Origin: an uncultured Gammaproteobacteria bacterium
GTDB lineage: Bacteria; Patescibacteriota; Patescibacteriia; UBA9934; CAZDDW01
Length of the DNA stretch: 64,000 bases
Assembly: GCA_965231015.1 (NCBI GenBank)
Contig: OZ246408.1
Span: 481,237 to 545,236 of the forward strand
Direction: 5' to 3'
The first letter of the stretch is position 1, and each line of letters starts with the position of its first letter. The notes under the pieces are model-generated. The model had not been told where the DNA came from, did not search any database, and saw nothing but the letters and a program-made list of their open reading frames with translations. Of this stretch, positions 2,385 through 50,156 are shown in pieces. The translations under genes were made by a program, and so were the position numbers.

Positions 2385-2413
2385 TTGACAGAAATTCTAA
2401 ATAAGCTTAAAAT
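2385..2413 (+). promoter_or_regulatory. sigma70-like promoter (TTGACA-17 nt-TAAAAT) upstream of infA operon; a second candidate TTGCTA-17-TAGAAT at 2443..2471
   Basis: There is a direct hexamer match with a 17-nt spacer in the alaS-infA intergenic region. Confidence 0.45.
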
Positions 2414-6813: not shown

Positions 6814-6827
6814 TTAGTGATAGATCT

Positions 6828-6863
6828 GGGCAAAATATTACGATCGTGAATTTTTGCCTGGAA
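6828..6863. repeat. 36-nt repeat copy B (GGGCAAAATATTACGATCGTGAATTTTTGCCTGGAA) immediately downstream of PaaX-like gene
   Basis: See copy A. Confidence 0.7.
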
Positions 6864-6982
6864 TCTGTTTAGTATTTATCTGGTCTTTAGGTATTCTAGT
6901 AAAGAATATAAAAAATAAAAACACTGAACCTCGCATGAGTGGTGCGGGGTAGTTGGCCGGGAAGGTCTAGTTGGTGACGGGA

Positions 6983-7240
6983 TTATTGTTGGAGAACAAA
7001 CCGATCACATGCAGGATGTTTGTCGGCCTGTTGAGAGGCACCTTGATCGGTTCGCCCTTGATATAGAACCATTCCTCCACATGCGTTTGCCTTCTTGATC
7101 CACCCGAAGTTATTGGTTTCCGGCTGCCTGTCACGATGCCAGTCGTGCTTCCAGGAGTTATGTTTGTCAGTCAGAGCTTGGTGGAGCCTCTCCAGCTGAT
7201 CCGCACAGAGTTCCAATTTGTCAAGGTTGTCCCTCGACAA
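6983..7240 (-). CDS. GC-rich orphan ORF (TTG start), probable gene relic of foreign origin
   Basis: This 85-aa ORF lies in a locally GC-rich ~300 bp patch between the PaaX-like gene and wzx. No recognisable domain was found. Confidence 0.2.
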   Translation of the reverse strand: MSRDNLDKLELCADQLERLHQALTDKHNSWKHDWHRDRQPETNNFGWIKKANACGGMVLYQGRTDQGASQQADKHPACDRFVLQQ

Positions 7241-7263
7241 TTAGCCCAAAAATAAGGTAAAAT

Positions 7264-11830: not shown

Positions 11831-11905
11831 TGGTGGACCCAACGAGAATTGAACTCGTGTTTCCCGGTACTCAAACGGGTGGGCTAACCATTACCCCATG
11901 GGCCC
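11831..11905 (-). tRNA. tRNA gene with encoded CCA; class I (short variable arm); anticodon loop UUGAGUA giving anticodon GAG by hand-fold, isotype uncertain
   Basis: The reverse complement reads GGGCCCATGGGGTAATGGTTAGCCCACCCGTTTGAGTACCGGGAAACACGAGTTCAATTCTCGTTGGGTCCACCA. It has a 7-bp acceptor stem, a D-arm with GG, a T-arm ACGAG/TTCAATT/CTCGT, and U8, A14, U33. Confidence 0.75.
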
Positions 11906-14316: not shown

Positions 14317-15895
14317 GCTGTCAAAACACTTCATTCCGAATGAACAAAGGAATCCACTGATCTCACAATTTGTTGGACCGTTGTTTTGGATTGTCTTGAG
14401 CTCGGTCTTGGTCGCGCATGTGGTTTCGTTCTTCACCCTCGGCACAGTGGCCGAATCGGTCATGGTGGTGGTAATCGGGGTTTTGGTGTTTGGTTTAAGC
14501 CTGTGGAAGCTTGAATATGGGCTTTATTTTGCCTTTGCAGAGCTATTTGTGGGCTCACATGGTCACTTATTCGATTTCGGGTGGTTCAGCGTAAGAATGG
14601 CCATTTTTGCGGCCGTGATGTTGGCTTGGTTGGTCAAATTTGTTACTCGCCGGATCGATTTCTTTTTGAAGGATTACCGGATTTATCCGTATTTACTGTT
14701 GGTTGTGTCCGTGATTATCGGAACCGCGGTCGGGCTTGTGGCCGGAAACGATAAAATGGACGTGTTTAATGACATGAACGCCTATTTGTTTCTTGGGTAT
14801 TTATTGCCAGTGCTTTCGATCCGTTGGACAGCGCTTCGTAAGCGCTCGCTTTTAGAGGTGCTGGCTGCCGGCGGAGCCTGGATCGTGGTCGAGTCACTGG
14901 CTCTGTTCTACGTGTTCACGCACGCGAGCGAAGACTTAGAGCGATTACTTTACATTTTTTTCCGTGACGCTCGTATTGCTGAAATTACACGAGTCTCCGG
15001 AGATGTGTTTCGGGTGTTCATGCAGTCACAGTTCACAGTTGTGATTGTGCTCATAATTGCCACGGCCGCACTTTTTTACTTGTGGCAACGTCACGTTAAT
15101 CGTAACTTTATTGCCTTGTCGTTGATCGGACTTTGGGCTGCAGTAATTTTGAGTATGTCACGCAGTTTCTGGGTCGGCCTCGCAGCCGGACTTGGTGTGC
15201 TAGGATTGTTTGTTCTTTTTAGTAAGGGGTATGGATTTGGAAAATTTGTCACGCGAGTTTTTCTCTCGGTTCTCATGCTTGGATCCGGCGTGTTGCTGCT
15301 TTGGAACTTGTTGGCTGTACCATTTCCGCAAGCGCTTGGGGTAGGGGACTTTGGTTCGATCTTGTCGTCCCGAGCCACAGACTTGGACGAGGCCGCAGCC
15401 CGAAGTCGTTGGAGTTTGATTGGGCCAATGATGGAACAGATTGGGCAGAGCCCGCTTGCTGGACGCGGATTTGGTACCATTGTTGAATATGAATCAGATG
15501 ATCCACGCGTACAAAAATTCTATGGTGGAGTTGCTACTACGTATGCATTTGAATGGGGGTTCCTGGATCTGTGGCTAAAGATGGGACTGCTCGGTCTGGC
15601 TGCATTTGTTTGGATCTTTGTGATGTATATTCGTTCACTCTTTGGTGCGGCTAAGACCGAGGAACACGGTTGGCTTATGCTCGCGCTTGGTTGCGGACTC
15701 ATTGCCCTTTATGCTACCCATATTTTTTCACCATACTTGAATCATCCAATCGGGCTCGGGTTTTTGGTCTTCCTAATGCCATTTTTAGATCTGACTCATC
15801 CTCATTTTTCCTTCGAATCAATTAAGGAAACCGTTAAGCAAAAAACTGCTGTGCAAACAACCACCCCGGCCATGACTTCAAAGATTGTGGATTAA
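14300..15895 (+). CDS. O-antigen ligase (Wzy_C/WaaL) family membrane protein
   Basis: It is a multi-TM protein. The central loop has an SMSRSFWVGLAAGLGVLGLFVLF motif typical of Wzy_C. It overlaps the previous gene by 17 nt. Confidence 0.6.
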   Translation: MNNMGKLSKHFIPNEQRNPLISQFVGPLFWIVLSSVLVAHVVSFFTLGTVAESVMVVVIGVLVFGLSLWKLEYGLYFAFAELFVGSHGHLFDFGWFSVRMAIFAAVMLAWLVKFVTRRIDFFLKDYRIYPYLLLVVSVIIGTAVGLVAGNDKMDVFNDMNAYLFLGYLLPVLSIRWTALRKRSLLEVLAAGGAWIVVESLALFYVFTHASEDLERLLYIFFRDARIAEITRVSGDVFRVFMQSQFTVVIVLIIATAALFYLWQRHVNRNFIALSLIGLWAAVILSMSRSFWVGLAAGLGVLGLFVLFSKGYGFGKFVTRVFLSVLMLGSGVLLLWNLLAVPFPQALGVGDFGSILSSRATDLDEAAARSRWSLIGPMMEQIGQSPLAGRGFGTIVEYESDDPRVQKFYGGVATTYAFEWGFLDLWLKMGLLGLAAFVWIFVMYIRSLFGAAKTEEHGWLMLALGCGLIALYATHIFSPYLNHPIGLGFLVFLMPFLDLTHPHFSFESIKETVKQKTAVQTTTPAMTSKIVD

Positions 15896-16046
15896 GATTT
15901 CCACAATCTTAATCTTGACGATCAGGTCAAACCGTGTTAAACAGAAAATAGATTATAAAAGACTCCCCAATTTTTTTTGCGGAGTTTTTATTTTCAAAAA
16001 CAGTTGTATAAACAGTTCGATCGCATCATATTTAGAACCAAAGACA

Positions 16047-16541
16047 ATGTCTGAAATTAAGGAAACATTTCTGGATTTGCTACACTTGGCTGGTATGGCA
16101 ATGAGTAATGGTCGGCATATGCCTTCGACCATGTTTTTAGATCGCGAGTCATATAACAGATGGTGTGAAATACAGGAAAGAAAGAAGATGAAACGCTTCA
16201 AATATGAAATAAAACGGCAGAATATTCTTAAAATAGAAGAGAGACACAATGAGATAATTTTACATATATCGCAAAAAGGAAAGCTTGAAGCCCTGAAACA
16301 GCAGATAATGAGCACAGAAGATGAACTACCAAAAGGACAATTGTGTGTTGTGAGTTACGATATTCCAGAGATTGCAAAAAAGAGCAGGGCGGTTTTTCGG
16401 GGGTTTTTAAAACGATCAGGATTTGCTCAGTTGCATAAAAGCACCTGGCATACGAGAAAAAATGTTGTTAAAACACTTAAGCAGTTGATCGATAAACTAG
16501 AGATCAATGAATGGGTTTCTGTTTTTCATGTTGTTGGTTAG
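16047..16541 (+). CDS. PaaX-like mini regulator (wHTH + Cas2-fold domain), paralog of 6316..6813
   Basis: It begins MSEIKETFLDLLHLAGMAMSNGRHMPSTMFLDRESY, versus MSETIEMLKDLMHMTGVALSSGRHMPSTSILSRASY in copy 1. The C-terminus reads LCVVSYDIPEIAKKSRAVFRGFLKRSGFAQLHKSTWHT. The tracked ORF starts upstream at 15885; the ATG at 16047 is preferred. Confidence 0.55.
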   Translation: MSEIKETFLDLLHLAGMAMSNGRHMPSTMFLDRESYNRWCEIQERKKMKRFKYEIKRQNILKIEERHNEIILHISQKGKLEALKQQIMSTEDELPKGQLCVVSYDIPEIAKKSRAVFRGFLKRSGFAQLHKSTWHTRKNVVKTLKQLIDKLEINEWVSVFHVVG

Positions 16542-16608: not shown

Positions 16609-16634
16609 ACAAAAAACCGCGGTTTAAACCACGA
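16609..16634 (-). terminator. second (backup) Rho-independent terminator of the minus-strand ncRNA (CGUGGUUUAAACCGCG + U6)
   Basis: On the minus strand, the hairpin is followed by TTTTTTGTT. Confidence 0.55.
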
Positions 16635-16659
16635 CTGCTGCAGTCACGAGTGAAATATT

Positions 16660-17183
16660 TGATTAAAAAAAGGCGGGATCGTTTCAATTCACTAGGAATT
16701 GTCGTTTCCCGCCAGAGTGAAGACCATACAGTCACAGCCTGCCCTGATAAAGTAGCTGTTTTTTGACCGTACGTGACACCTTTTTTCACCCTCGGAAGGG
16801 AGACCTGATCGTGCCAAACCAGGATTATCTTTCGTTGCCCGTTAAGGATGCGGGCCTTTGGTGGATGATTAGTCGCACAACGCTGATCGTCCTAGCTCAT
16901 GGGTGGGAACCCCCAATCATTGCCAGGCAATCGACTCTTGCCGCATCAGTTTCCCTGGTTCTCACCTGAACCATCTGATGGGCCTGTCCTTAAGGACCGG
17001 TGAGCTTATCGGGGATCTTGCCAACGTCAGGGTCGCCAGCATCCCTTGGATAAGTGTCCCGTGGTATAGTAGGTCACCCTTTTCCTGAGCCACGTCTCAG
17101 GGGGTGGGCAAGGACGGGGGGGCCGCCTTGCCTCGGCCTTTTCCACTCCGCAGAAACCCTTCAAGTTGGATTCCCACGGTGAT
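16660..17183 (-). ncRNA. candidate ~0.5 kb structured non-coding RNA of unknown class (GC-rich, no ORF over 68 aa in any frame)
   Basis: A consensus promoter lies at 17190..17218 and tandem terminators at its far end. The region is markedly GC-richer than its flanks and has many internal hairpins (e.g. GGCAAGGCGGCCCCCCCGUCCUUGCC). There is no downstream gene on this strand. Confidence 0.55.
16663..16712 (-). terminator. Rho-independent terminator (GGCGGGAAACGA....CGAUCCCGCC + U7) ending the minus-strand ncRNA
   Basis: On the minus strand, an 8-bp GC stem is followed by TTTTTTT. Confidence 0.7.
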
Positions 17184-17189
17184 GCGCCC

Positions 17190-17218
17190 AATATAACACA
17201 AAATAACACTTTTGTCAA
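17190..17218 (-). promoter_or_regulatory. consensus sigma70 promoter on minus strand: TTGACA-17 nt-TATATT
   Basis: On the minus strand the sequence reads TTGACAAAAGTGTTATTTTGTGTTATATTGGGCGCA. The -35 is perfect and the -10 is 5/6, with a 17-nt spacer. The tracked minus ORF 17027..17218 starts with the TTG of the -35 box and is rejected. Confidence 0.7.
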
Positions 17219-17270
17219 GTGTCAGACACAAAAGCGACCTCAAAAGTCGCTTATTTTAGTACAATTTTAC

Positions 17271-18188: not shown

Positions 18189-18655
18189 AGCTTGGGAGGA
18201 TTGGTGTAGTTGATAACACGATCGATAAACAGAATGCCGTCCAGATGATCAATTTCGTGCTGAAAAATAATGGCCTCCATGCCACCCACCTTGCGTTTCA
18301 TTTTATGACCATGTCGATCCTTGGCCTTGATGGTAACAGATTTGTTTCGTTTTACTTGACCGTAAACTCCGGGAATAGAAAGACACCCCTCTTCCGAAGT
18401 AGTGTGCCAGATAGAACGGCGGATAATTTTCGGATTAACAAAAACTTCCGGACCGGTCTTAGTCTCAATAATTATAATTCGTTTATGAATTCCGATTTGT
18501 GGTGCGGCCAAACCAACTCCATCGGCCAGTTTCATGGTATCAATCATGTTGTCAATCAGGCTCTGGATTTTGTCCTCGGTCAGTTCTTTTTTATTGACCT
18601 CTTCAGACTTCAAACGTAAGTCATGATTGGGGTCAGTTAGAATGTTTAGTTTCAT
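18185..18655 (-). CDS. def: peptide deformylase
   Basis: The motifs GVGLAAPQIG, EGCLSIPG and QHEIDHLDG are present. It overlaps fmt by 4 nt. Confidence 0.9.
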   Translation of the reverse strand: MKLNILTDPNHDLRLKSEEVNKKELTEDKIQSLIDNMIDTMKLADGVGLAAPQIGIHKRIIIIETKTGPEVFVNPKIIRRSIWHTTSEEGCLSIPGVYGQVKRNKSVTIKAKDRHGHKMKRKVGGMEAIIFQHEIDHLDGILFIDRVINYTNPPKL

Positions 18656-20478
18656 AGTGATTCAATTGGATTTGTCTCTATAATGAAAGAATCTGGTAAA
18701 TTTTGCAAGGTTTGATTGATTCTTTCAGTTACTTCTTTGGGTGAGCGAATTTCCAAAGCATACTTTTTATTATTGGTTAAATTTTGTTTTACATTGGGAA
18801 AGGATTCAGTCAAGTGATCGGAAAGTTGGTCTATCATTTGTTGTGCCTCGGTTGGTCTTCCGCGAACCGTGATTCGCCACATACTACCAAAAGGCGGATA
18901 CGAAAAGTGGCGGCGAACCTGTGCTTCATCATCAAGGGTCGTTTTTGGTTCATTGATGATTCGACTGATTAGTTCAGGTGACCAGGTTTGAACCATGAAG
19001 TTGGCTCGAGCCCGCCAGGCTAAACCGCGCAGTTCGTGTAAACGGACCATTGTCTTTTCCACGGCGTTGTAAAACGGTTCAGAGAGACCAATGTCTGCGG
19101 CTAGTTCAGCGACTAATCCGAATTGAGGAGGATTCAAACGGTCAAGTATGTTTTCAAAGTAAAATTGGGTAGCCACTATTATCTCAGTTTCCGGATCAAA
19201 CTGCGTTCCTTTTTCCGCCACACCGATTGTTTCAGTGGGAAAGCGCTTCATTAACTGGCGTACGATTTCTCGGTTACCAATTCCACGTGAAGTTAGCTCG
19301 GTTCCGTTGCAGTTCGGGCAGTTTAAAGGAATGGGCATCAGGTGACCGCAACGGTGACACTTTAGTTCTTGCTCCCAGACCGTTGAGACTCCGTGGCATT
19401 TCGGACACTCGGCTAAATAGTTACAGTCTTTGCATACTAATCGTGGAGCAACACCCTTACGATTATAAGAAAATAACACTTTTTGACCTTTTTGTAAAGC
19501 CTCCCGAGTAGCTTTTAAGACAGGGTTGGAAAGAAGAATAAAATCTGTTGTTTCAGCTTCGGTCTTTAAGTTTAAGGGACGGGTTTTAGGAAGAAGGTCG
19601 TTTGGCAATCGGGTAATTGTGCGGAATTGTTCAGTGGTTTCAAGGGTTGGCACAACATCGAAAAAAGCTAGTGTGGCTCCGGTTGCTTTTTGCCAGGCCA
19701 AAGATAAATCCGTAGCACTGTAGCGCGGGTTCCGATCGTACTGTCGGTGCTCTGGGGAATTTGGTCTTAAAACAAAAATTGCTCCAAGCTCACACGCTGG
19801 AAGCAAAGCTCCCACCCGGGTGGCTACCATGGTCTTGATTCCTCCGGCTCGCCAAGCTGCGGCAGTATCAGCCCGACGCGTACGGGTGGTACGACTATCA
19901 AGCAGATGAACTGCATGTTCGCTTGCCAGAGCCTGACTAACTTCGTCAGCGTCATGTGTGTGGGGAACCAAGATCAGAGTTTGTCGGTTTTTATTTTGTC
20001 GTAGATATGCATCAATAGATCCAACCGCCTGAATCAAATCCGTGACTTCAAAAAAATTAGTACCCCCGTGTTGTATTTTTTTGACCAGGTTTTGCAGGTG
20101 ACTGATTTCTTCGGCGCGTAAACGAACCGCCTGTCCAGGCTGAACCTGAGGAATCGAGTAGGACCCACGTTTACGTGGTGGTAAAAACGCAGTGTCAAGT
20201 ACGGTTGATACCGACTGTACTATTTTTTCAGCCATGTCTTCATAAATTGCCAATTCATCTGAATTAAGCCAATTTTTGTCAAGTACTGATTCTACAGGTT
20301 TCAAGTTGGATTGCTTTGATTTTTCTGAGATTGCTTTTACCAATCCTCGGATTGTAATATTGCGAAATGGGATATAGACCAAAGAACCCCGTTCAACTTC
20401 TATTGAAGACGGGATCTCATAATCAAAGGCGTGAAAGCGTCGTGGTAAACGCTTGATTGGGTAAATTTGGGCAATCAT
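18652..20478 (-). CDS. priA: primosomal protein N' (replication restart helicase PriA)
   Basis: The protein has a 3'-DNA-binding N-terminus, helicase motifs and a Cys-rich zinc-binding insert (CPKCHGVS...CHRCGH...CPNCNG). Confidence 0.85.
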   Translation of the reverse strand: MIAQIYPIKRLPRRFHAFDYEIPSSIEVERGSLVYIPFRNITIRGLVKAISEKSKQSNLKPVESVLDKNWLNSDELAIYEDMAEKIVQSVSTVLDTAFLPPRKRGSYSIPQVQPGQAVRLRAEEISHLQNLVKKIQHGGTNFFEVTDLIQAVGSIDAYLRQNKNRQTLILVPHTHDADEVSQALASEHAVHLLDSRTTRTRRADTAAAWRAGGIKTMVATRVGALLPACELGAIFVLRPNSPEHRQYDRNPRYSATDLSLAWQKATGATLAFFDVVPTLETTEQFRTITRLPNDLLPKTRPLNLKTEAETTDFILLSNPVLKATREALQKGQKVLFSYNRKGVAPRLVCKDCNYLAECPKCHGVSTVWEQELKCHRCGHLMPIPLNCPNCNGTELTSRGIGNREIVRQLMKRFPTETIGVAEKGTQFDPETEIIVATQFYFENILDRLNPPQFGLVAELAADIGLSEPFYNAVEKTMVRLHELRGLAWRARANFMVQTWSPELISRIINEPKTTLDDEAQVRRHFSYPPFGSMWRITVRGRPTEAQQMIDQLSDHLTESFPNVKQNLTNNKKYALEIRSPKEVTERINQTLQNLPDSFIIETNPIESL

Positions 20479-23203: not shown

Positions 23204-25876
23204 TTACGCCTTGGCTTTTACTTTTGCAGTTTTCTGTTGCTTGATACCGATCTTATCTTTTGTGGTGTCAACTTGTACCGTACTTTCTTCATTGATTTTG
23301 CCACCGATAATCATTTTGGCTAACTCGTCTAGAATTTCAGACTGAATTAAGCGTTTCAAAGGCCGAGCGCCGTAAGCCGGATCGTATCCTTTTTGGGCTA
23401 AATACCCTTTGGCTTTATCTGTGATTTCAAGAGTGATTTTGCGTTGGTCCAACAGGCGTTTAGCTACACGGTTAACCTGCAACTCAACAATCGAACTGAT
23501 TTCGTCCTGACTTAAAGCGTGGAACATGATGATGTCATCGAGTCGATTTAAGAATTCCGGTCTAAATTGCTCGGTTAACATTTCCATGACTCGAGTGCGC
23601 ATGGTTTTATCTTTGGTTGTCTCGGACTCATCATCTTCAGAGAATCCCATCACCCCACTTGTTCCTTTAATAGTCATGTTCATGATGGCATCAGACCCAA
23701 CGTTCGAGGTCATTATCACTACGCAATTCTTAAAGTTCACTTTGCGACCCTTGGCGTCAGTCAGGTGTCCATCATCAAGAATTTGTAGCAGCATGTTAAA
23801 GGTGTCCGGATGAGCCTTTTCAATTTCATCAAACAGAAGTACTGAATACGGTTTACGTCGAACGATTTCGGTCAACTGTCCGCCTTCTTCATGACCAATA
23901 TAACCAGGAGGCGAACCAATCATTTTGGAGACCGAATGCTTTTCCATGTATTCGGACATGTCCAGTCGCACAAGCGCCGATTCATCGTTGAACATAAACT
24001 CGGCCAAAGCTCGGGCTAGTTCAGTCTTACCAACTCCGGTCGGACCAAGGAACAGGAACGAACCAATTGGTCGGCCTTCTTCCGAGATTCCAGCTCGGCT
24101 TCGGCGCAGGGCATTTGAAACAGCTACAATCGATTCTTGTTGACCAACCACTCGTTTCTTAAGCTCCTCTTCCATTCGGTTCAACTTCTCAAGTTCGCTT
24201 TCCAGCATCTTGGAAACAGGAATATTAGTCCAGCGCGATACTACCGCGGCTACATCTTCATCGCTCACAACTTCTTTTAAGATTCCACGATCCTTTTGCA
24301 ATTTAGCTAAGGCGGTTTCAGATTTGCGTAATTCTTTTTCTTTGGCCGGGATTTCACCATAACGAATTTCCGCCACCCGTTGCAGGTCACCTTTACGTTC
24401 TTCAATTTCGGCTTTGATACGCAGCTTGTCGATTTCTTTTTTAGTAGCCCGAATTTCAGCAATTTTATCTTTTTCGTTTTTCCATTTCATTTCCAGTTCT
24501 CGAGACGATTCCTTAGTATCAGCCAGCTGTTTTTCGATTTCAGCTAGACGAGCCTTAGAATCCTTGTCTTCTTCTTTGAGCAAAGCCTGACGCTCAATTT
24601 CAAGCCGCATAATGTCGCGCTTGGCTTTATCCAGGTCCTCGGGCATGGAATCAATCTGCATCTTGAGCGCGGAACTAGCTTCGTCAATCAAGTCCACGGC
24701 CTTATCCGGTAAAAAACGATCTGTGATATATCGGGTTGAAAGTTCAGCCGCGGCAATAATGGCAGAATCTGCAATTCTAATTCCGTGGTGCAGTTCGTAG
24801 CGGTCCTTGATTCCTCGGAGAATAGCAATAGTGTCATCAATGGAGGGCTCTTCTACAAGCACCGGCTGAAAACGGCGTTCAAAAGCCGGGTCCTTCTCAA
24901 TGTGCCGCTGATATTCTTTAAGTGTAGTGGCTCCGATAGTTTTAAACCGACCGCGAGCCAGAGCCGGCTTTAACATGTTTGACGCATCAAGCGGAGAACC
25001 ATCACTTGTTCCTGCACCAACTAAAGTATGAATCTCATCGATAAAACAAATAATCCGACCATCACTGTCTTCGATTTCCTTTATTACTGCCTTGAGCCGA
25101 TCTTCAAATTCACCCCGGTACTTTGTTCCGGCGACCAACGCTCCCAGATCCAATGAAACCAGTTCTCTGTTTTGCAAAGACTCAGGCACGTCACCACCGG
25201 CAATTCGTTGAGCCAGTCCTTCTACGATGGCGGTTTTACCAACTCCGGCCTCACCAATTAACACCGGGTTATTTTTGGTGCGGCGCGAAAGAATCTGCAT
25301 TACACGACGTATCTCTGCATCACGACCGATCACCGGATCCAGCTTTTCTTCGCGTGCCAGTTCGGTCAGGTTCTGGGCGTATTTCTCGAGCGCCTGATAC
25401 TTGGCTTCAGGTTCTGGGGAGTCAACTTTTTGGTTTCCTCGAATGTCTTTTAATACTCGCATGATCTCATCTTCCAACACACCATTTTGTTCCAAAAGTC
25501 GTCGGATGTTTTTGTCAGTCATTAATCCGAGCAATAAATGTTCAGTCGAAATATAATCGTCTTTAAATGATTTGGCGGTTTTATTCGAAGCGGCAAATAC
25601 ACGTGCCATTTGTGGAGAAAGATAAATCTGACCCACACCACCGTTTGTAAATTGGTTTTTGGGCAGAGCGTCCATGATTTTGTCGATCTGTCCGCGTAAT
25701 TCCGCTACATCAATTTCTAATTTTTCAATAGCGCTTATTACCACACCTTCATCTTGAGAAAGCAGGGAAGAGAGAAGGTGGATTGGTTCAATGGCCTGCT
25801 GACCGTTTTCTACGGCCAAATTGTGCGAATTTTGAATTGCCTCTTGAGCCTTGTGAGTGAAGTTTTGTGGGAGCAT
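23204..25876 (-). CDS. clpB: ATP-dependent chaperone ClpB (two AAA+ modules with coiled-coil M-domain)
   Basis: The 890-aa protein has a Clp_N repeat and two Walker A motifs ([30 protein letters not shown]). A long coiled coil lies between NBD1 and NBD2. Confidence 0.95.
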
Positions 25877-25976: not shown

Positions 25977-26003
25977 TTAGCACTCTCAATTATAGAGTGC
26001 TAA
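25977..26003. promoter_or_regulatory. CIRCE element (HrcA operator): TTAGCACTC-N9-GAGTGCTAA
   Basis: It is an exact match to the canonical CIRCE inverted repeat with a 9-nt spacer. It lies about 100 nt upstream of the clpB start and about 80 nt upstream of the 26082 gene. Confidence 0.85.
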
Positions 26004-26081
26004 TCGATAATAGTCAAGCTGGCTAAAATGAGGGTATTTTGGTACAATTTATAGATTATAAAGTGCTTAAATTGGCTAAAT

Positions 26082-33178: not shown

Positions 33179-33183
33179 TACAT

Positions 33184-33384
33184 ATGGATTCAATTTGGAA
33201 ATTAGTTTTATATCTTGGAATCGTTTTCTTCTTCTTACCGCTTTCATTATTTGTCGGTTTATCCGTGATGATGATGAAAGAGTTAATGGACGAGGAAGAC
33301 ACTGTTAAGACAATAATCATGACCGGCTTTTTTGTTATGATGGCCGGTGCGTTAATGTTGTTGCTCTACTACTTGCTACACTAA
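33184..33384 (+). CDS. small two-TM membrane protein (66 aa)
   Basis: It is a hydrophobic ORF directly after the M23 gene and is followed by a terminator. Confidence 0.45.
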   Translation: MDSIWKLVLYLGIVFFFLPLSLFVGLSVMMMKELMDEEDTVKTIIMTGFFVMMAGALMLLLYYLLH

Positions 33385-33413
33385 TATTTTCCGACACATA
33401 ATAAAACGACACA

Positions 33414-33439
33414 CCTCCCCGGGGTAGGGGAGGTTTTTT
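33414..33439 (+). terminator. Rho-independent terminator (CCTCCCCGGGGTAGGGGAGG + T6)
   Basis: A GC stem is followed by TTTTTT. Confidence 0.8.
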
Positions 33440-34044
33440 AATTGTATCGATCCTAAGTCTTAAGTATAAAAAATAAAGTTCCACATCACGAAATTTTTTT
33501 ATCTGATTTAATAGTTTCTCAAGAATCCCAAAGGGGGATAACGGGAAACACCATAATAAATAAGAAATCTAGGGTCGCACAATATATGTTAGACGACGCT
33601 TAATAAAGCGTTTAAGCCTGACGTTTTTCATGTTTATTAAGCGTTTGTCTAACATTCGGAACATTGTTACGGCACAAAAATGCAAAATAAGTTTTGTGAT
33701 CGTAAAATGTTCCTTGGCGCGTTTATATGCTTCAAATCGAAGTTTTATTTGCGGAAATACATTTTTTCACTTTATCTTTAATTCTTTATACTTTTTGTTA
33801 TTTCGAGAGGTATGTAGATACCTCCCAAATTCAAATACGGCAAATTTGAGCGTCACAAATAAACAAGTTTCATAAAAATCAAATTGAAAACCACCAATAC
33901 AAAATTAAGCTCGTATCAGTGATTATTTTGTTTTATGGTTGTTTCTAGGTATCAACAGCAATCAAAATCATTGTTTTCCATACCTCTCCTCTTCCCTGTA
34001 GGTACACCTCCTGATTATGTGTCGTAAAATACATCAATAAGTTT

Positions 34045-44520: not shown

Positions 44521-44815
44521 TTTAAAAACAAATTTTTCAAAAATATGTCGCCTAACGTTCAAGTATATGAGAAGTTTCGCACACTCCTTATTAAAATTCA
44601 ATAATGTGTGTGCGAAATTTGGGTAAAAGAAATTGCGCCCCCGCTAAAAGTTAAGAAGCGTAATTTCTTGAACCTCTTATACTTTGTTGTACGATGTTGG
44701 CTTTCCATTTTATTCGATTTTTTGGGGAGTTTTCGGTCGTTTGCAATTGACAGGCGGGGAGCAACTTGCTATTATTCAAAGTCGCAATTCCGCGACCAAC
44801 GAAGGAGGTTTATCA

Positions 44816-48970: not shown

Positions 48971-49806
48971 TTATTTGCTCTTAGTTATCTGTTTAAATAT
49001 TTCACTTCCTAATACTTGAAGAGAGGTTTTTGAAATCTCAATCATAATGTTAAACATCTCTTTTGCATCCCATTTTTCTCCATTGCCTTGTGTATATATT
49101 GAAGTTGCCTGAAGCATAATTGTTTTATCTTTGTGTTTAACAAATTTATTTTTACACAGATTAGTATTAATTGGCATTCCATAATTTGCAGAGGTCAGCC
49201 TATCTAACCTATTTAACATTCCTGAATTGTATTCAAGTGTCACAACCCTTCCATCAGGTCTTTTAATTGAAATAGTTTCTGTTAAAAAATTTGACCCCTC
49301 CAAAAATAAGATATATGGAAAATGGGATTCATATAGCATAAAGTTGGCAATTTCTGATATGTTTTTATGTGATCTTTCTATCGCGTTACCGGCAGCCATC
49401 AAGTCTTGATTGTTGTTTATACCAACTTGATTTCCTTTCAGTATATTTTCAATGTCTTTCCCTTGATGTTTAGCCTCCGTTACAAGTAATACTCTCCAAT
49501 TATCGCTATCGTCTTTTACTTCTATTATTCCGCCATCAGGTTTAATGCTTGAATTTGATACAAAAATAGTTTGTCCTAACTCTGGATCAATTTTCTTTAA
49601 TGCTTCGTTTATTTCTTCCTTTTTTATGCTTGTTCTATATCTAAAAGATAATTGAGGAAATTCTTTTTCAAGTTGTTCAATTACAAGATGTGAAATTTTA
49701 CCAACACTTATATCATGCGATTTTGCGTTTTCTCCAAATATACCAACTACTCCGTGAGATTTTTATGCTGATTTGTTAATCTTTTAGATTGATTCTTTTT
49801 AGCCAT
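48971..49806 (-). pseudogene. EcoRI-family type II restriction endonuclease, N-terminal frameshift in T5/A5 run at 49760..49764
   Basis: The region downstream of the frameshift matches R.EcoRI closely: GVVGIFGENAKSHD, PQLSFRYRTSIKKEEINEALKKIDPELGQTIFVSNSSIKPDGGIIEVKDDSDNWRVLLVTEAKHQGKDI and QDLMAAGNAIERSHKNISEIANFML. The N-terminus MAKKNQSKRLTNQHKN is in the -1 frame; one extra A restores the full ORF. Confidence 0.8.
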
Positions 49807-49894
49807 ATTGTTTTTTGAATAAGTAAGGTGTCTTTATTATAGTGTTTTTTTATAAAAATTTAAAATTCATTTTTTGCGGAAGTATGAAGCAAAA

Positions 49895-49918
49895 AATACC
49901 ATATATCCCCCTCATTAA
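49895..49918 (-). promoter_or_regulatory. motif ATGAGGGGGATATATGGTA (minus sense) about 110 nt upstream of the EcoRI-like R start; related copies upstream of C gene
   Basis: The same about 19-nt motif occurs twice at 56629..56647 and 56681..56697. Confidence 0.4.
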
Positions 49919-49981
49919 AATAAAAATTCCATTCCTTTTTAAATTCTTCAACAAAATTCTTTATTTGAGAAAAAATATTGA

Positions 49982-50150
49982 AAAATATGTCGCACAACGT
50001 TAGGGCTATACGAAGTTTTTCGACCGAAGGGAGAAAAATTTGGAGAAATGGCGAGCCGAGCCATTTCTCGTATAGCCCTTGTTATACGAGGGTGAGCGAC
50101 CAACGGGAGCGAAAGCGCAGCGTCCCCTTGCGTATGACGCAGGCAGGCGA
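49982..50150. repeat. partial repeat R3' (modules sharing AAAAATATGTCGCNNAACGTT and GAGGGTGAGCGAC..GGAGCGAAAG with R2 and 44539..44600)
   Basis: The same sub-modules occur in R2 and at 44539..44600, as seen by eye. Confidence 0.5.
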
Positions 50151-50156
50151 TTTTCG

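What the first reader, a model, noticed from the sequence alone, without database searches (positions are those of the whole stretch)
16609..17218. A ~0.5 kb GC-rich structured ncRNA candidate with a textbook promoter and tandem terminators; class unknown
A minus-strand TTGACA-17-TATATT promoter lies at 17190-17218. Two consecutive intrinsic terminators lie at 16663-16712 and 16609-16634. Between them is ~510 nt with no ORF over 68 aa in any frame, high GC relative to flanks, and many strong local hairpins. There is no downstream gene, so it is not a leader.

By inspection I could not find the universally conserved blocks of RNase P RNA (GGAAAGUCCGG / ACAGAAACCCGGCUUA). The tmRNA tRNA-like 3' end and the SRP domain-IV motif were also absent, although a weak GGAAAAGGCCGAGGC resembles the RNase P CR-I. 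So this may be a divergent housekeeping RNA or a new large ncRNA.
Basis: seen in the sequence. Interest (0 to 1): 0.75.

Follow-up and report, generated by a model that had tools for sequence, protein, structure and literature searches.

The report
Orphan structured RNA gene in Patescibacteria
This is a real, separately transcribed, about 520-base folded RNA gene in a tiny-genome (Patescibacteria/CPR) bacterium; it matches no known RNA family, is known from only two related genomes, and its job is unknown.

Summary
On the minus strand a near-consensus sigma-70 promoter (17218-17190) follows the fmt terminator. It is followed by about 520 nt of GC-rich (54% vs 42%) non-coding sequence that ends in one or two intrinsic terminators.

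One relative exists (82% identical Fmt; L081). It keeps the promoter, the terminator and a 256-nt core (16809-17064). The core has eight 100%-identical blocks, while neighbouring genes are only 77-79% identical in DNA. In 97 predicted pairs, all 11 pairs that changed stayed paired (7 double compensatory changes). Indels of 1-7 nt rule out coding.

Rfam 15 gives nothing, even at E<=10. The RNase P CR-I/IV/V motifs are absent, there is no tmRNA and no intron-containing tRNA.

Five sister lineages have fmt and the Wzy_C gene directly abutting. The RNA gene is therefore a lineage-specific insertion, not a housekeeping gene at a conserved locus.

The adjacent Cas2-like (PaaX_M) gene looks like a separate cassette. 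Three homologues of it checked elsewhere have no such RNA.

No further homologue was found in any collection, so function stays inferred. My reading is an accessory RNA that acts through its fold, of a new family.

The parts
17232..17252 (-). Terminator-like hairpin that ends the upstream priA-def-fmt operon (AAGCGACUUUUGAGGUCGCUU, then UUGUGU). It separates fmt from the RNA gene.
   Evidence: A hairpin at the same place in L081 has a different stem sequence.
17190..17218 (-). Sigma-70-type promoter: -35 TTGACA (17218-17213), 17-nt spacer with TG at 17198-17197, -10 TATATT (17195-17190). The predicted start is about 17185-17183 (inferred).
   Evidence: Conserved in L081.
16665..17185 (-). Predicted primary transcript, about 521 nt, 54% GC. 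Read-through to T2 would give about 577 nt.
   Evidence: The ends are inferred from the promoter and terminator, not measured.
17084..17179 (-). Variable 5' part (57% identical to L081) with hairpins H1 (17179-17148), H2b (17132-17107) and H3 (17101-17084).
   Evidence: H1 has 3 double compensatory changes and 1 single change. For H2b I read one A-U to G-C pair change off the alignment by eye; the pairs counted for this region never vary. L081 has an extra GAAA-tetraloop hairpin here.
16809..17064 (-). Conserved 256-nt core: five consecutive hairpin domains (Ha-He) plus an invariant 23-nt strand. Eight blocks are 100% identical between the two genomes.
16939..16989 (-). Longest invariant block (51 nt). 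It covers part of hairpin Hb and all of hairpin Hc: CAUCAG-A-UGGUUC-AGGUGA-GAACCA-GGGAAA-CUGAUG.
16809..16831 (-). Invariant strand S8, AAGAUAAUCCUGGUUUGGCACGA, predicted mostly unpaired. It could form a 9-bp pseudoknot with GAACCAGGG of Hc, or pair with UCAGGA of the 5' part. No covariation is available to decide.
16771..16781 (-). Conserved island S9 (AGGUGUCACGU) inside the otherwise 31%-identical 3' part. It is complementary at 10 of 11 positions to S1 (ACGGGACACUU, 17062-17052). It is a candidate helix closing the core domain.
   Evidence: Forcing this helix costs only 0.6-1.8 kcal/mol. Not proven.
16665..16713 (-). Terminator T1: 7-bp GC-rich stem base enclosing a small hairpin, then U7.
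   Evidence: Conserved in L081.
16609..16656 (-). Second terminator-like hairpin plus T-run (T2). It belongs to a repeat (D1) whose second copy overlaps the 3' end of the Wzy_C gene.
16047..16541 (+). Convergent neighbour: 164-aa protein with a Cas2-like PaaX_M domain. It is context only and probably not a functional partner.

Best explanation
It is a genuine, independently transcribed gene for a stable, highly structured non-coding RNA of about 520 nt. It belongs to no described family.

Anatomy. A strong constitutive-type promoter drives a transcript with three parts. The 5' part has three hairpins and evolves fast, but keeps them by compensatory change. The 256-nt core is under strong purifying selection. 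It holds five hairpin domains with invariant loops and internal loops, plus an invariant 23-nt strand. A long-range helix (S1/S9) probably closes it, and a pseudoknot may be present. The 3' part is variable and ends in an intrinsic terminator.

Origin. The gene was gained by insertion between the convergent fmt and Wzy_C genes. This happened in the common ancestor of two related Patescibacteria species. It is therefore an accessory RNA, not a universal one.

Inferred mechanism (not shown). The RNA acts through its three-dimensional fold, as a protein-binding scaffold, a self-assembling or ribozyme-like 'ornate' RNA. It does not act by coding, as a cis leader, or as a simple antisense RNA. The variable peripheral hairpins would serve as stabilisers.
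For: Shown:
- Promoter quality and rarity, and its conservation with the terminator in L081.
- DNA identity of the core is 85.6% including gaps, with eight 100% blocks of up to 51 nt. The flanking genes give 77-79% (fmt, def, priA) and 70% (PaaX_M). The 5' part is 57% identical and the 3' part 31%.
- Of 97 predicted pairs, 100% are paired in both genomes. There are 7 double compensatory changes, 4 single changes and none disruptive. Controls with the partner slid by 1-3 columns give 0-1 compensatory pairs and 32-43% pairing.
- Indels of 1, 2, 3 and 7 nt fall in loops or extend helices.
- No conserved ORF.
- The fold z-score favours the sense strand.
- No Rfam match at E<=10 on 551 nt, nor in L081 at E<=1.
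- Five sister lineages have fmt and Wzy_C overlapping with nothing between them.

Inferred:
- The S1/S9 closing helix and the S4/S8 pseudoknot.
- Action through the fold.
Against: - Only two distinct sequences exist, so the covariation evidence is thin. The structure was derived from the same two sequences, which biases the pair counts.
- No expression data are available, so transcript ends and stability are predicted only.
- No homologue was found in any other collection. Family-level conservation is untested, and nothing in the neighbourhood points to a function.
- The Rfam E-value ceiling means a very weak match to a long model would not have been listed. I estimate this limit at roughly below 15-20 bits; it is not a tool output.
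- The rest of the roughly 1.0-Mb source genome could not be checked for canonical rnpB, ssrA or ffs.
Confidence: 0.72

Rival explanations
1. It is a highly divergent housekeeping RNA, most plausibly RNase P RNA, that Rfam models miss. This is known to happen in CPR bacteria.
For: - Lui et al. 2021 (PMC8172020) report that 10 of 35 closed CPR genomes gave no RNase P RNA hit at default thresholds, and that many hits needed refolding.
- The size, GC richness, strong promoter and stand-alone gene fit a stable housekeeping RNA.
- The general layout is RNase-P-like in outline: 5' hairpins followed by a roughly 290-nt domain closed by a long-range helix.
Against: - CR-I, CR-IV and CR-V are absent in both genomes, allowing substitutions in up to a fifth of each motif (3 for the 15-nt CR-I and CR-V motifs, 1 for the 8-nt ones).
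- No RNase P family appears even at E<=10 on 551 nt or in L081. The diverged CPR forms of Lui et al. were still found by RF00010.
- The gene is an insertion that five sister lineages lack at this locus.
- The conserved core is a row of hairpins, not the nested P5-P11 cruciform.
Confidence: 0.05
2. It is a degenerate or free-standing group I-like ribozyme, or an intron in an unrecognised host RNA gene.
For: - Divergent group I introns are frequent in Patescibacteria, and some escape RF00028 and ARAGORN (Nakagawa et al. 2026, PMC13011429).
- S8 begins AAGAUA, like the J8/7 consensus AAGAUAUAGUC (from my own knowledge).
- The Hc block contains GUUCAG, like the R element (from my own knowledge).
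- CAUCAG/CUGAUG and GAACCAGGG/UCCUGGUUU could form a P3/P7-type pseudoknot.
Against: - With that P3/P7 assignment, only 15 nt lie where the P4-P6 domain must be.
- There is no recognisable host gene. ARAGORN with introns up to 700 nt finds no credible tRNA, and the flanks are less conserved than the core, the opposite of exon versus intron.
- RF00028 gives no hit at E<=10.
- The motif resemblances are 6-mers.
Confidence: 0.05
3. It is the RNA partner (antitoxin, guide or regulator) of the adjacent Cas2-like PaaX_M protein, and the two form one mobile or defence module.
For: - Both genes are present in the window and in L081, and both are absent from five sister lineages.
- They are convergent, with ends only about 70 nt apart.
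- The protein has a Cas2-like fold signature: PF20803 at 1.3e-12, and Cas2 models at 1e-4 to 3.5e-4, below their cut-offs.
- The protein gene is AT-rich, like acquired genes.
Against: - In L081 the PaaX_M gene alone is bracketed by 46-nt and 37-nt direct repeats, one copy overlapping the Wzy_C 3' end. This indicates a separate insertion event next to an RNA gene that was already there.
- The protein family is large, with about 850 clusters at 50% identity. The three homologue neighbourhoods examined have no adjacent large non-coding gap and no similarity to the RNA.
Confidence: 0.08
4. It is a trans-acting base-pairing sRNA or sponge. The invariant single strand (S8) is a seed, and the rest is a stabilising scaffold.
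For: - It has a 23-nt invariant, predicted-unpaired segment.
- It has its own promoter and a Rho-independent terminator.
- GGCA(N)GAU and CAGG/CCUG motifs recur (read directly from the sequence).
Against: - At 520 nt, with 256 nt under selection and invariant hairpin loops, it is far larger than needed for a seed-type sRNA.
- No target was identified.
- S8 has three competing intramolecular partners.
Confidence: 0.07
5. It is not functional: a decaying remnant of an acquired element or a pseudogene that happens to be GC-rich.
For: Narrow distribution (two genomes) and a location in an insertion-prone convergent intergenic region.
Against: - The core is much more conserved than the neighbouring essential genes.
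- All changes in helices preserve pairing.
- The promoter and terminator are intact in both genomes.
- Frame-breaking indels exclude a recent pseudogene of a protein gene.
Confidence: 0.03

Closest known systems
Large 'ornate' bacterial ncRNAs of unknown function (ROOL, GOLLD, OLE, raiA motif RNA)
   Same: It is a stand-alone gene a few hundred to about 600 nt long. It has many hairpins with invariant loops and junctions around a conserved core, a sporadic (accessory) distribution, and no coding potential. Function is not deducible from the neighbours.
   Different: There is no sequence or structure match to any of them in Rfam 15, even at E<=10. It is not in phage or plasmid collections and not next to tRNAs. 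It is known from two genomes rather than hundreds. Oligomerisation is untested.
Bacterial RNase P RNA, including the diverged CPR forms of Lui et al. 2021 (PMC8172020)
   Same: Size class, GC-richness in an AT-rich genome, a strong stand-alone promoter, and 5' hairpins followed by a large domain closed by a long-range helix. CPR RNase P RNAs can fall below Rfam thresholds.
   Different: The P4-forming CR-I/CR-V and CR-IV sequences are missing in both genomes. There is no weak Rfam hit. The core is a series of hairpins. The gene is a lineage-specific insertion.
Group I intron catalytic core, including divergent Patescibacteria tRNA introns (PMC13011429)
   Same: An AAGAUA-initiated invariant strand followed by a strand that can pair with an upstream segment across an intervening hairpin (P3/P7-like pseudoknot). 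Peripheral hairpins have GNRA loops in L081. Group I introns are common in this phylum.
   Different: There is no room for P4-P6 in the canonical position, no host gene or exons, no identifiable splice sites, and no RF00028 hit.

Membership tests
RNase P RNA (bacterial type A/B) | CR-I (GAGGAAAGUCCGGGC) and CR-V (ACAGAACCCGGCUUA), which form helix P4 | tested here: not met
No match with up to 3 substitutions in either the window RNA or the L081 RNA.
RNase P RNA (bacterial type A/B) | Match to the Rfam covariance models (RF00010, RF00011 and clan) | tested here: not met
   No RNase P family is listed at gathering score or at E<=10 on 551 nt, nor in L081 at E<=1. A score below roughly 15-20 bits (my estimate) would not be shown.
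RNase P RNA (bacterial type A/B) | Pre-tRNA 5' leader cleavage, and being the only rnpB in the genome | not testable with these tools
   Only 64 kb of the roughly 1.0-Mb source contig is available, and no assay is possible.
tmRNA | tRNA-like acceptor and T-arm domain, plus a tag reading frame | tested here: not met
   ARAGORN finds none, including at a relaxed threshold. There is no GGUUCGAAUCC-like T-arm with up to 2 substitutions and no Rfam hit.
SRP RNA / 6S RNA | Domain IV motif, or a long irregular hairpin with a central bubble; match to the Rfam models | tested here: not met
   No Rfam hit. The SRP motif is absent. The size and architecture differ.
Group I intron | P3-P7 pseudoknot with the P4-P6 domain between P3 5' and P7 5' | tested here: not met
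   Candidate P3 (CAUCAG/CUGAUG) and P7 (GAACCAGGG/UCCUGGUUU) exist. Only 15 nt separate them where P4-P6 should be (read from the sequence).
Group I intron | Insertion in a host gene with definable exons and splice sites | tested here: not met
   No tRNA with an intron up to 700 nt. No rRNA, tmRNA or CDS flanks. The flanks are less conserved than the core.
Group I intron | Self-splicing activity; match to specialised models (gpI_bact_tRNA.cm) | not testable with these tools
   That model is not available here. RF00028 gives no hit at E<=10.
ROOL / GOLLD / OLE / HEARO / raiA and all other Rfam 15 families | Covariance-model match | tested here: not met
   Only unrelated chance hits (snoRNA, miRNA, CRISPR repeat) at E 0.14-9. 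Only two of them (DUF3800-I and aspC) are on the RNA's strand, and both lie outside the transcript.
Structured ncRNA gene (generic) | Own promoter and terminator, no conserved ORF, helices kept by compensatory change, core more conserved than neighbouring CDS | tested here: met
Cas2-like (PaaX_M) protein-RNA module | Co-occurrence of the RNA with homologues of the protein | tested here: not met
   The neighbourhoods of three homologues (34-47% identity) lack any large non-coding gap or similarity to the RNA. Separate repeat-bracketed insertion is seen in L081. Only three contexts were sampled.

The most novel reading that the evidence does not exclude
This is the founding member of a new class of large folded bacterial RNA, a ribozyme or self-assembling or protein-scaffolding 'ornate' RNA. 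A Patescibacteria lineage with a roughly 1-Mb genome acquired it by insertion and kept it under strong selection. Its 256-nt core is closed by a long-range helix and locked by a pseudoknot that involves the invariant AAGAUAAUCCUGGUUUGGCACGA strand.
Probability: 0.35. Interest if true: 0.75.

Novelty: categorically new. Interest (0 to 1): 0.55.

Why it matters
Patescibacteria have stripped-down genomes of about 1 Mb, so 0.5 kb spent on a non-coding gene is notable. Its core is also better conserved than essential genes such as fmt, def and priA, which implies a real selective benefit.

New large structured RNA classes are rare, and they have repeatedly revealed unexpected biology: RNA-guided nucleases from HEARO, and RNA nanocages from ROOL and GOLLD.

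This example also shows that such RNAs can be recent lineage-specific acquisitions, invisible to family-based annotation.

The caveat is that only two sequences are known and there is no functional hint. For now it is a well-supported candidate, not a characterised system.

Tried and rejected
**Known RNA families**
- Rfam at gathering score and at E<=10, on the window region and on L081: nothing relevant.
- ARAGORN for tRNA and tmRNA, with introns up to 700 nt and relaxed scores: nothing credible.
- Motif scans for RNase P CR-I to CR-V, the tmRNA T-arm, the SRP motif and group II domain V: none conserved. A CACGUACGGUC string resembling the domain V 3' strand is not kept in L081.

**Search for homologues**
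- 80 fmt loci from GTDB genomes, searched with nhmmer: none. There is no general GC-rich gap after fmt in other CPR genomes.
- Phage and plasmid blastn: none.
- IMG/VR motif scans: none. The one hit, L085, is a chance match inside a coding region.
- JGI metagenomes: I scanned with invariant blocks translated into pseudo-peptides. This gave 274 random candidates and 0 confirmed. An 18-mer from S8 gave 19 hits, all random.
- The 5.8-billion-protein database, searched with a six-frame chimera to catch spurious ORFs called on homologues: none.

**Other ideas**
- Association with PaaX_M: rejected.
- An apparent resemblance to the 23S rRNA GTPase-centre region and to E. coli M1 RNA fragments. The 23S comparison used a sequence recalled from memory. 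The local alignment score was 22, against a shuffle mean of 20.8, so the resemblance is not real.
- A conserved small ORF: rejected.
- Repeats, CRISPR or TIGR arrays: none.
Full report
**1. Observation**

- A terminator-like hairpin (17252-17232) closes the priA-def-fmt operon.
- Thirteen bases later comes TTGACA-17-TATATT (17218-17190), with a TG extended -10.
- Only four sites in the 64-kb window lie within one mismatch of TTGACA-N17-TATAAT. Shuffles predict 0.55.
- About 521 nt follow, with 54% GC against 42% for the window.
- The stretch ends at T1: GGCGGGA...UCCCGCC plus U7, at 16713-16665.
- A second hairpin plus T-run lies at 16636-16609.
- The next gene is convergent, so this is not a leader.
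- No ORF exceeds 68 aa.
- The sense strand folds with z = -4.1 and the antisense strand with z = -2.15.

**2. Organism and relatives**

- The flanking proteins place the window in Patescibacteria (CPR), near Uhrbacteria. The best GTDB Fmt identity is 45%. A named Uhrbacteria Fmt reaches 55%.
- An identical Fmt sits on a 1.0-Mb contig.
- Exactly one other species-level relative exists in the resources searched: Fmt 82% identical, loci L081 and L082 from Logan assemblies. It has the same gene order and the same non-coding gap.

**3. Evidence that it is a structured RNA gene**

Conservation between the window and L081:
- The promoter is kept (-35 exact, 17-nt spacer, -10 TATAGT), and so are the T1 stem base and U-run.
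- A 256-nt core (16809-17064) contains eight 100%-identical blocks, the longest 51 nt.
- Core identity is 85.6% including gap columns. The figures for neighbouring genes are 76.8% (fmt), 79.2% (def), 77.2% (priA) and 70.1% (PaaX_M).
- The 5' part is 57% identical and the 3' part 31%.

Pattern of change:
- Differences concentrate in hairpin tips and helices.
- Indels of 1, 2, 3 and 7 nt lengthen or shorten hairpins.
- In 97 local base pairs, every cell is a standard pair in both genomes. There are 7 double compensatory changes, 4 single consistent changes and no disruptions.
- With the 3' partners slid by 1-3 columns, only 32-43% of cells pair and 0-1 pairs show compensation.
- This is biased by deriving the fold from the same two sequences, and two sequences cannot give statistical covariation. 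Still, the pattern is what a folded RNA gives and a coding or neutral sequence does not.

Coding potential and fold:
- ORFs are not conserved. L081's two 103-aa ORFs are in other frames, and one starts inside the promoter.
- The only AUG-started frame in the invariant block is cut to 12 codons in L081.
- The L081 RNA folds with z = -6.2.

**4. Architecture**

Shown and inferred steps are marked.
- 5' part: hairpins H1, H2b and H3. H1 is supported by compensatory changes. L081 has an extra GAAA-tetraloop hairpin here.
- Core: five consecutive hairpin domains.
  - Ha: CUUAUC/GAUAAG, with GGGAU/AUCCC and a compensated tip helix.
  - Hb: variable length.
  - Hc: invariant.
  - Hd: invariant apart from its loop.
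  - He: branched, with compensated helices.
- After the hairpins comes the invariant strand S8, AAGAUAAUCCUGGUUUGGCACGA.
- An 11-nt island, S9, is the only conserved piece of the 3' part. It is complementary at 10 of 11 positions to S1 at the 5' edge of the core.
- Forcing the S1/S9 helix costs 0.6-1.8 kcal/mol relative to the MFE in the two RNAs. I infer that it closes the core domain.
- S8 could pair with GAACCAGGG of Hc (9 bp, pseudoknot), with UCAGGA in the 5' part, or locally. Without variation this cannot be decided.

**5. What it is not**

*Any Rfam 15 family.* Rfam gives only a tRNA elsewhere in the window at gathering score. At E<=10 on 1 kb or 551 nt, no RNase P, tmRNA, SRP, 6S, group I/II, ROOL, GOLLD, OLE, HEARO or raiA hit appears. 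L081 gives nothing at E<=1.

*RNase P RNA.* CPR RNase P RNAs can be missed by default thresholds (PMC8172020), so I checked the universal motifs directly.
- CR-I and CR-V (up to 3 substitutions) and CR-IV (up to 1) are absent from both RNAs.

*tRNA with an intron, or tmRNA.* ARAGORN with introns up to 700 nt finds no tRNA, and no tmRNA is found.

*Group I intron.* Divergent group I introns abound in this phylum (PMC13011429), and S8 begins like J8/7. However, a P3/P7 assignment leaves 15 nt where P4-P6 must be. There is also no host gene.

*23S rRNA.* An apparent resemblance to the 23S rRNA GTPase-centre region was tested against a sequence recalled from memory. It scored at shuffle level.

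**6. Evolutionary context**

- Five sister lineages (Fmt 53-57% identical) have fmt and the Wzy_C gene directly convergent, overlapping by 16-26 nt.
- The 1.4 kb holding the RNA gene and the PaaX_M gene is therefore an insertion in the window/L081 lineage.
- In L081 the PaaX_M gene alone is bracketed by direct repeats of 46 nt and 37 nt.
  - Its twin overlaps the Wzy_C 3' end.
  - This suggests the PaaX_M cassette inserted later, beside an RNA gene already abutting Wzy_C.
- The PaaX_M family is large, with about 850 clusters at 50% identity. Three homologue neighbourhoods show no adjacent RNA.
- I therefore treat the protein as a neighbour, not a partner.

**7. Search for further homologues (all negative)**

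- 80 fmt loci from GTDB genomes.
- Phage and plasmid collections.
- IMG/VR motifs and pseudo-peptide scan.
- JGI metagenomes by pseudo-peptide patterns from two invariant blocks: 274 candidates, about the number expected by chance, none confirmed.
- JGI metagenomes by an 18-mer from S8: 19 hits, all unrelated.
- The 5.8-billion-protein set, searched for spurious ORFs.

The RNA is thus rare or very divergent elsewhere.

**8. Interpretation**

Best explanation (confidence 0.72 for 'real structured ncRNA gene of a new family, gained by insertion'): an accessory RNA that works through its fold.
- Supporting 'works through its fold': selection acts on helices, internal loops and hairpin loops over 256 nt, not on a short seed.
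- Supporting 'accessory': the presence/absence pattern in the sister lineages.
- The actual activity (scaffold, ribozyme or multimer) is inference only.

Rivals:

| Rival | Confidence |
|---|---|
| PaaX_M partner RNA | 0.08 |
| Seed-type sRNA or sponge | 0.07 |
| Divergent RNase P RNA | 0.05 |
| Group I-like ribozyme | 0.05 |
| Non-functional remnant | 0.03 |

**9. Novelty and score**

- No described family fits, so at family level it is new.
- With two sequences, no expression data and no functional lead, a specialist would find it a solid candidate rather than a surprise.
- Interest is 0.55.
- The most novel reading not excluded is a new class of large ribozyme or ornate RNA kept by a minimal-genome bacterium. 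I give it probability 0.35 and interest 0.75 if true.

Noticed in passing
window 16047-16541 (+); L081 5608-5710 and 6213-6419: The neighbouring 164-aa Cas2-like (PaaX_M) gene is AT-rich. In L081 it is bracketed by two direct repeats, of 46 nt (85% identical) and 37 nt (86% identical). One copy overlaps the 3' end of the Wzy_C gene. It looks like a small inserted cassette with a long target duplication. The window keeps only a degenerate second copy.
   Followed up: partly
window 15885-16046: The mechanical ORF for the PaaX_M gene starts at TTG 15885 (218 aa). The homologue in L081 and the gene calls show that the real start is the ATG at 16047 (164 aa, MSEIKETF...).
   Followed up: yes
L083, L111-L116 and a JGI contig: In five sister lineages the fmt and Wzy_C (O-antigen ligase-like) genes are convergent and overlap by 16-26 nt. 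The LigB/Memo-priA-def-fmt order is conserved across the whole group.
   Followed up: yes
window 2385-2413 (+), 25989-26017 (-), 44747-44775 (+): Three further near-consensus sigma-70 promoters (1 mismatch each). The first lies in a 508-nt gap (2344-2851). The second lies in a 25%-GC gap upstream of the ClpB-like gene (23204-25876, -). The third is apparently inside an ORF.
   Followed up: no
window 33179-34044, 49403-50156, 2344-2851, 6814-7263: These are other long stretches without an ORF of at least 100 aa (450-866 nt, GC 0.33-0.45). They gave no Rfam hit at gathering score and are not GC-enriched like the RNA studied here.
   Followed up: no
L081 5408-5449: The 3' part of the L081 RNA carries a tandem duplication of a CCGA-GUGA-UCGG (GNRA-loop) hairpin. 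The window has a single, different hairpin (CCCU-UCCG-AGGG) at that place. This is an example of rapid turnover of peripheral hairpins.
   Followed up: partly
window 11831-11905 (-): tRNA-Leu(GAG), the only Rfam or ARAGORN hit in the window. Its GC (0.56) matches that of the new RNA, as expected for structural RNAs in a 42%-GC genome.
   Followed up: yes
window 18652-20478 (-): The PriA homologue matches the 3'-DNA-binding domain well, but the helicase domains only weakly (Helicase_C 7.9e-05, below the cut-off). It may be a divergent or reduced PriA typical of CPR.
   Followed up: no
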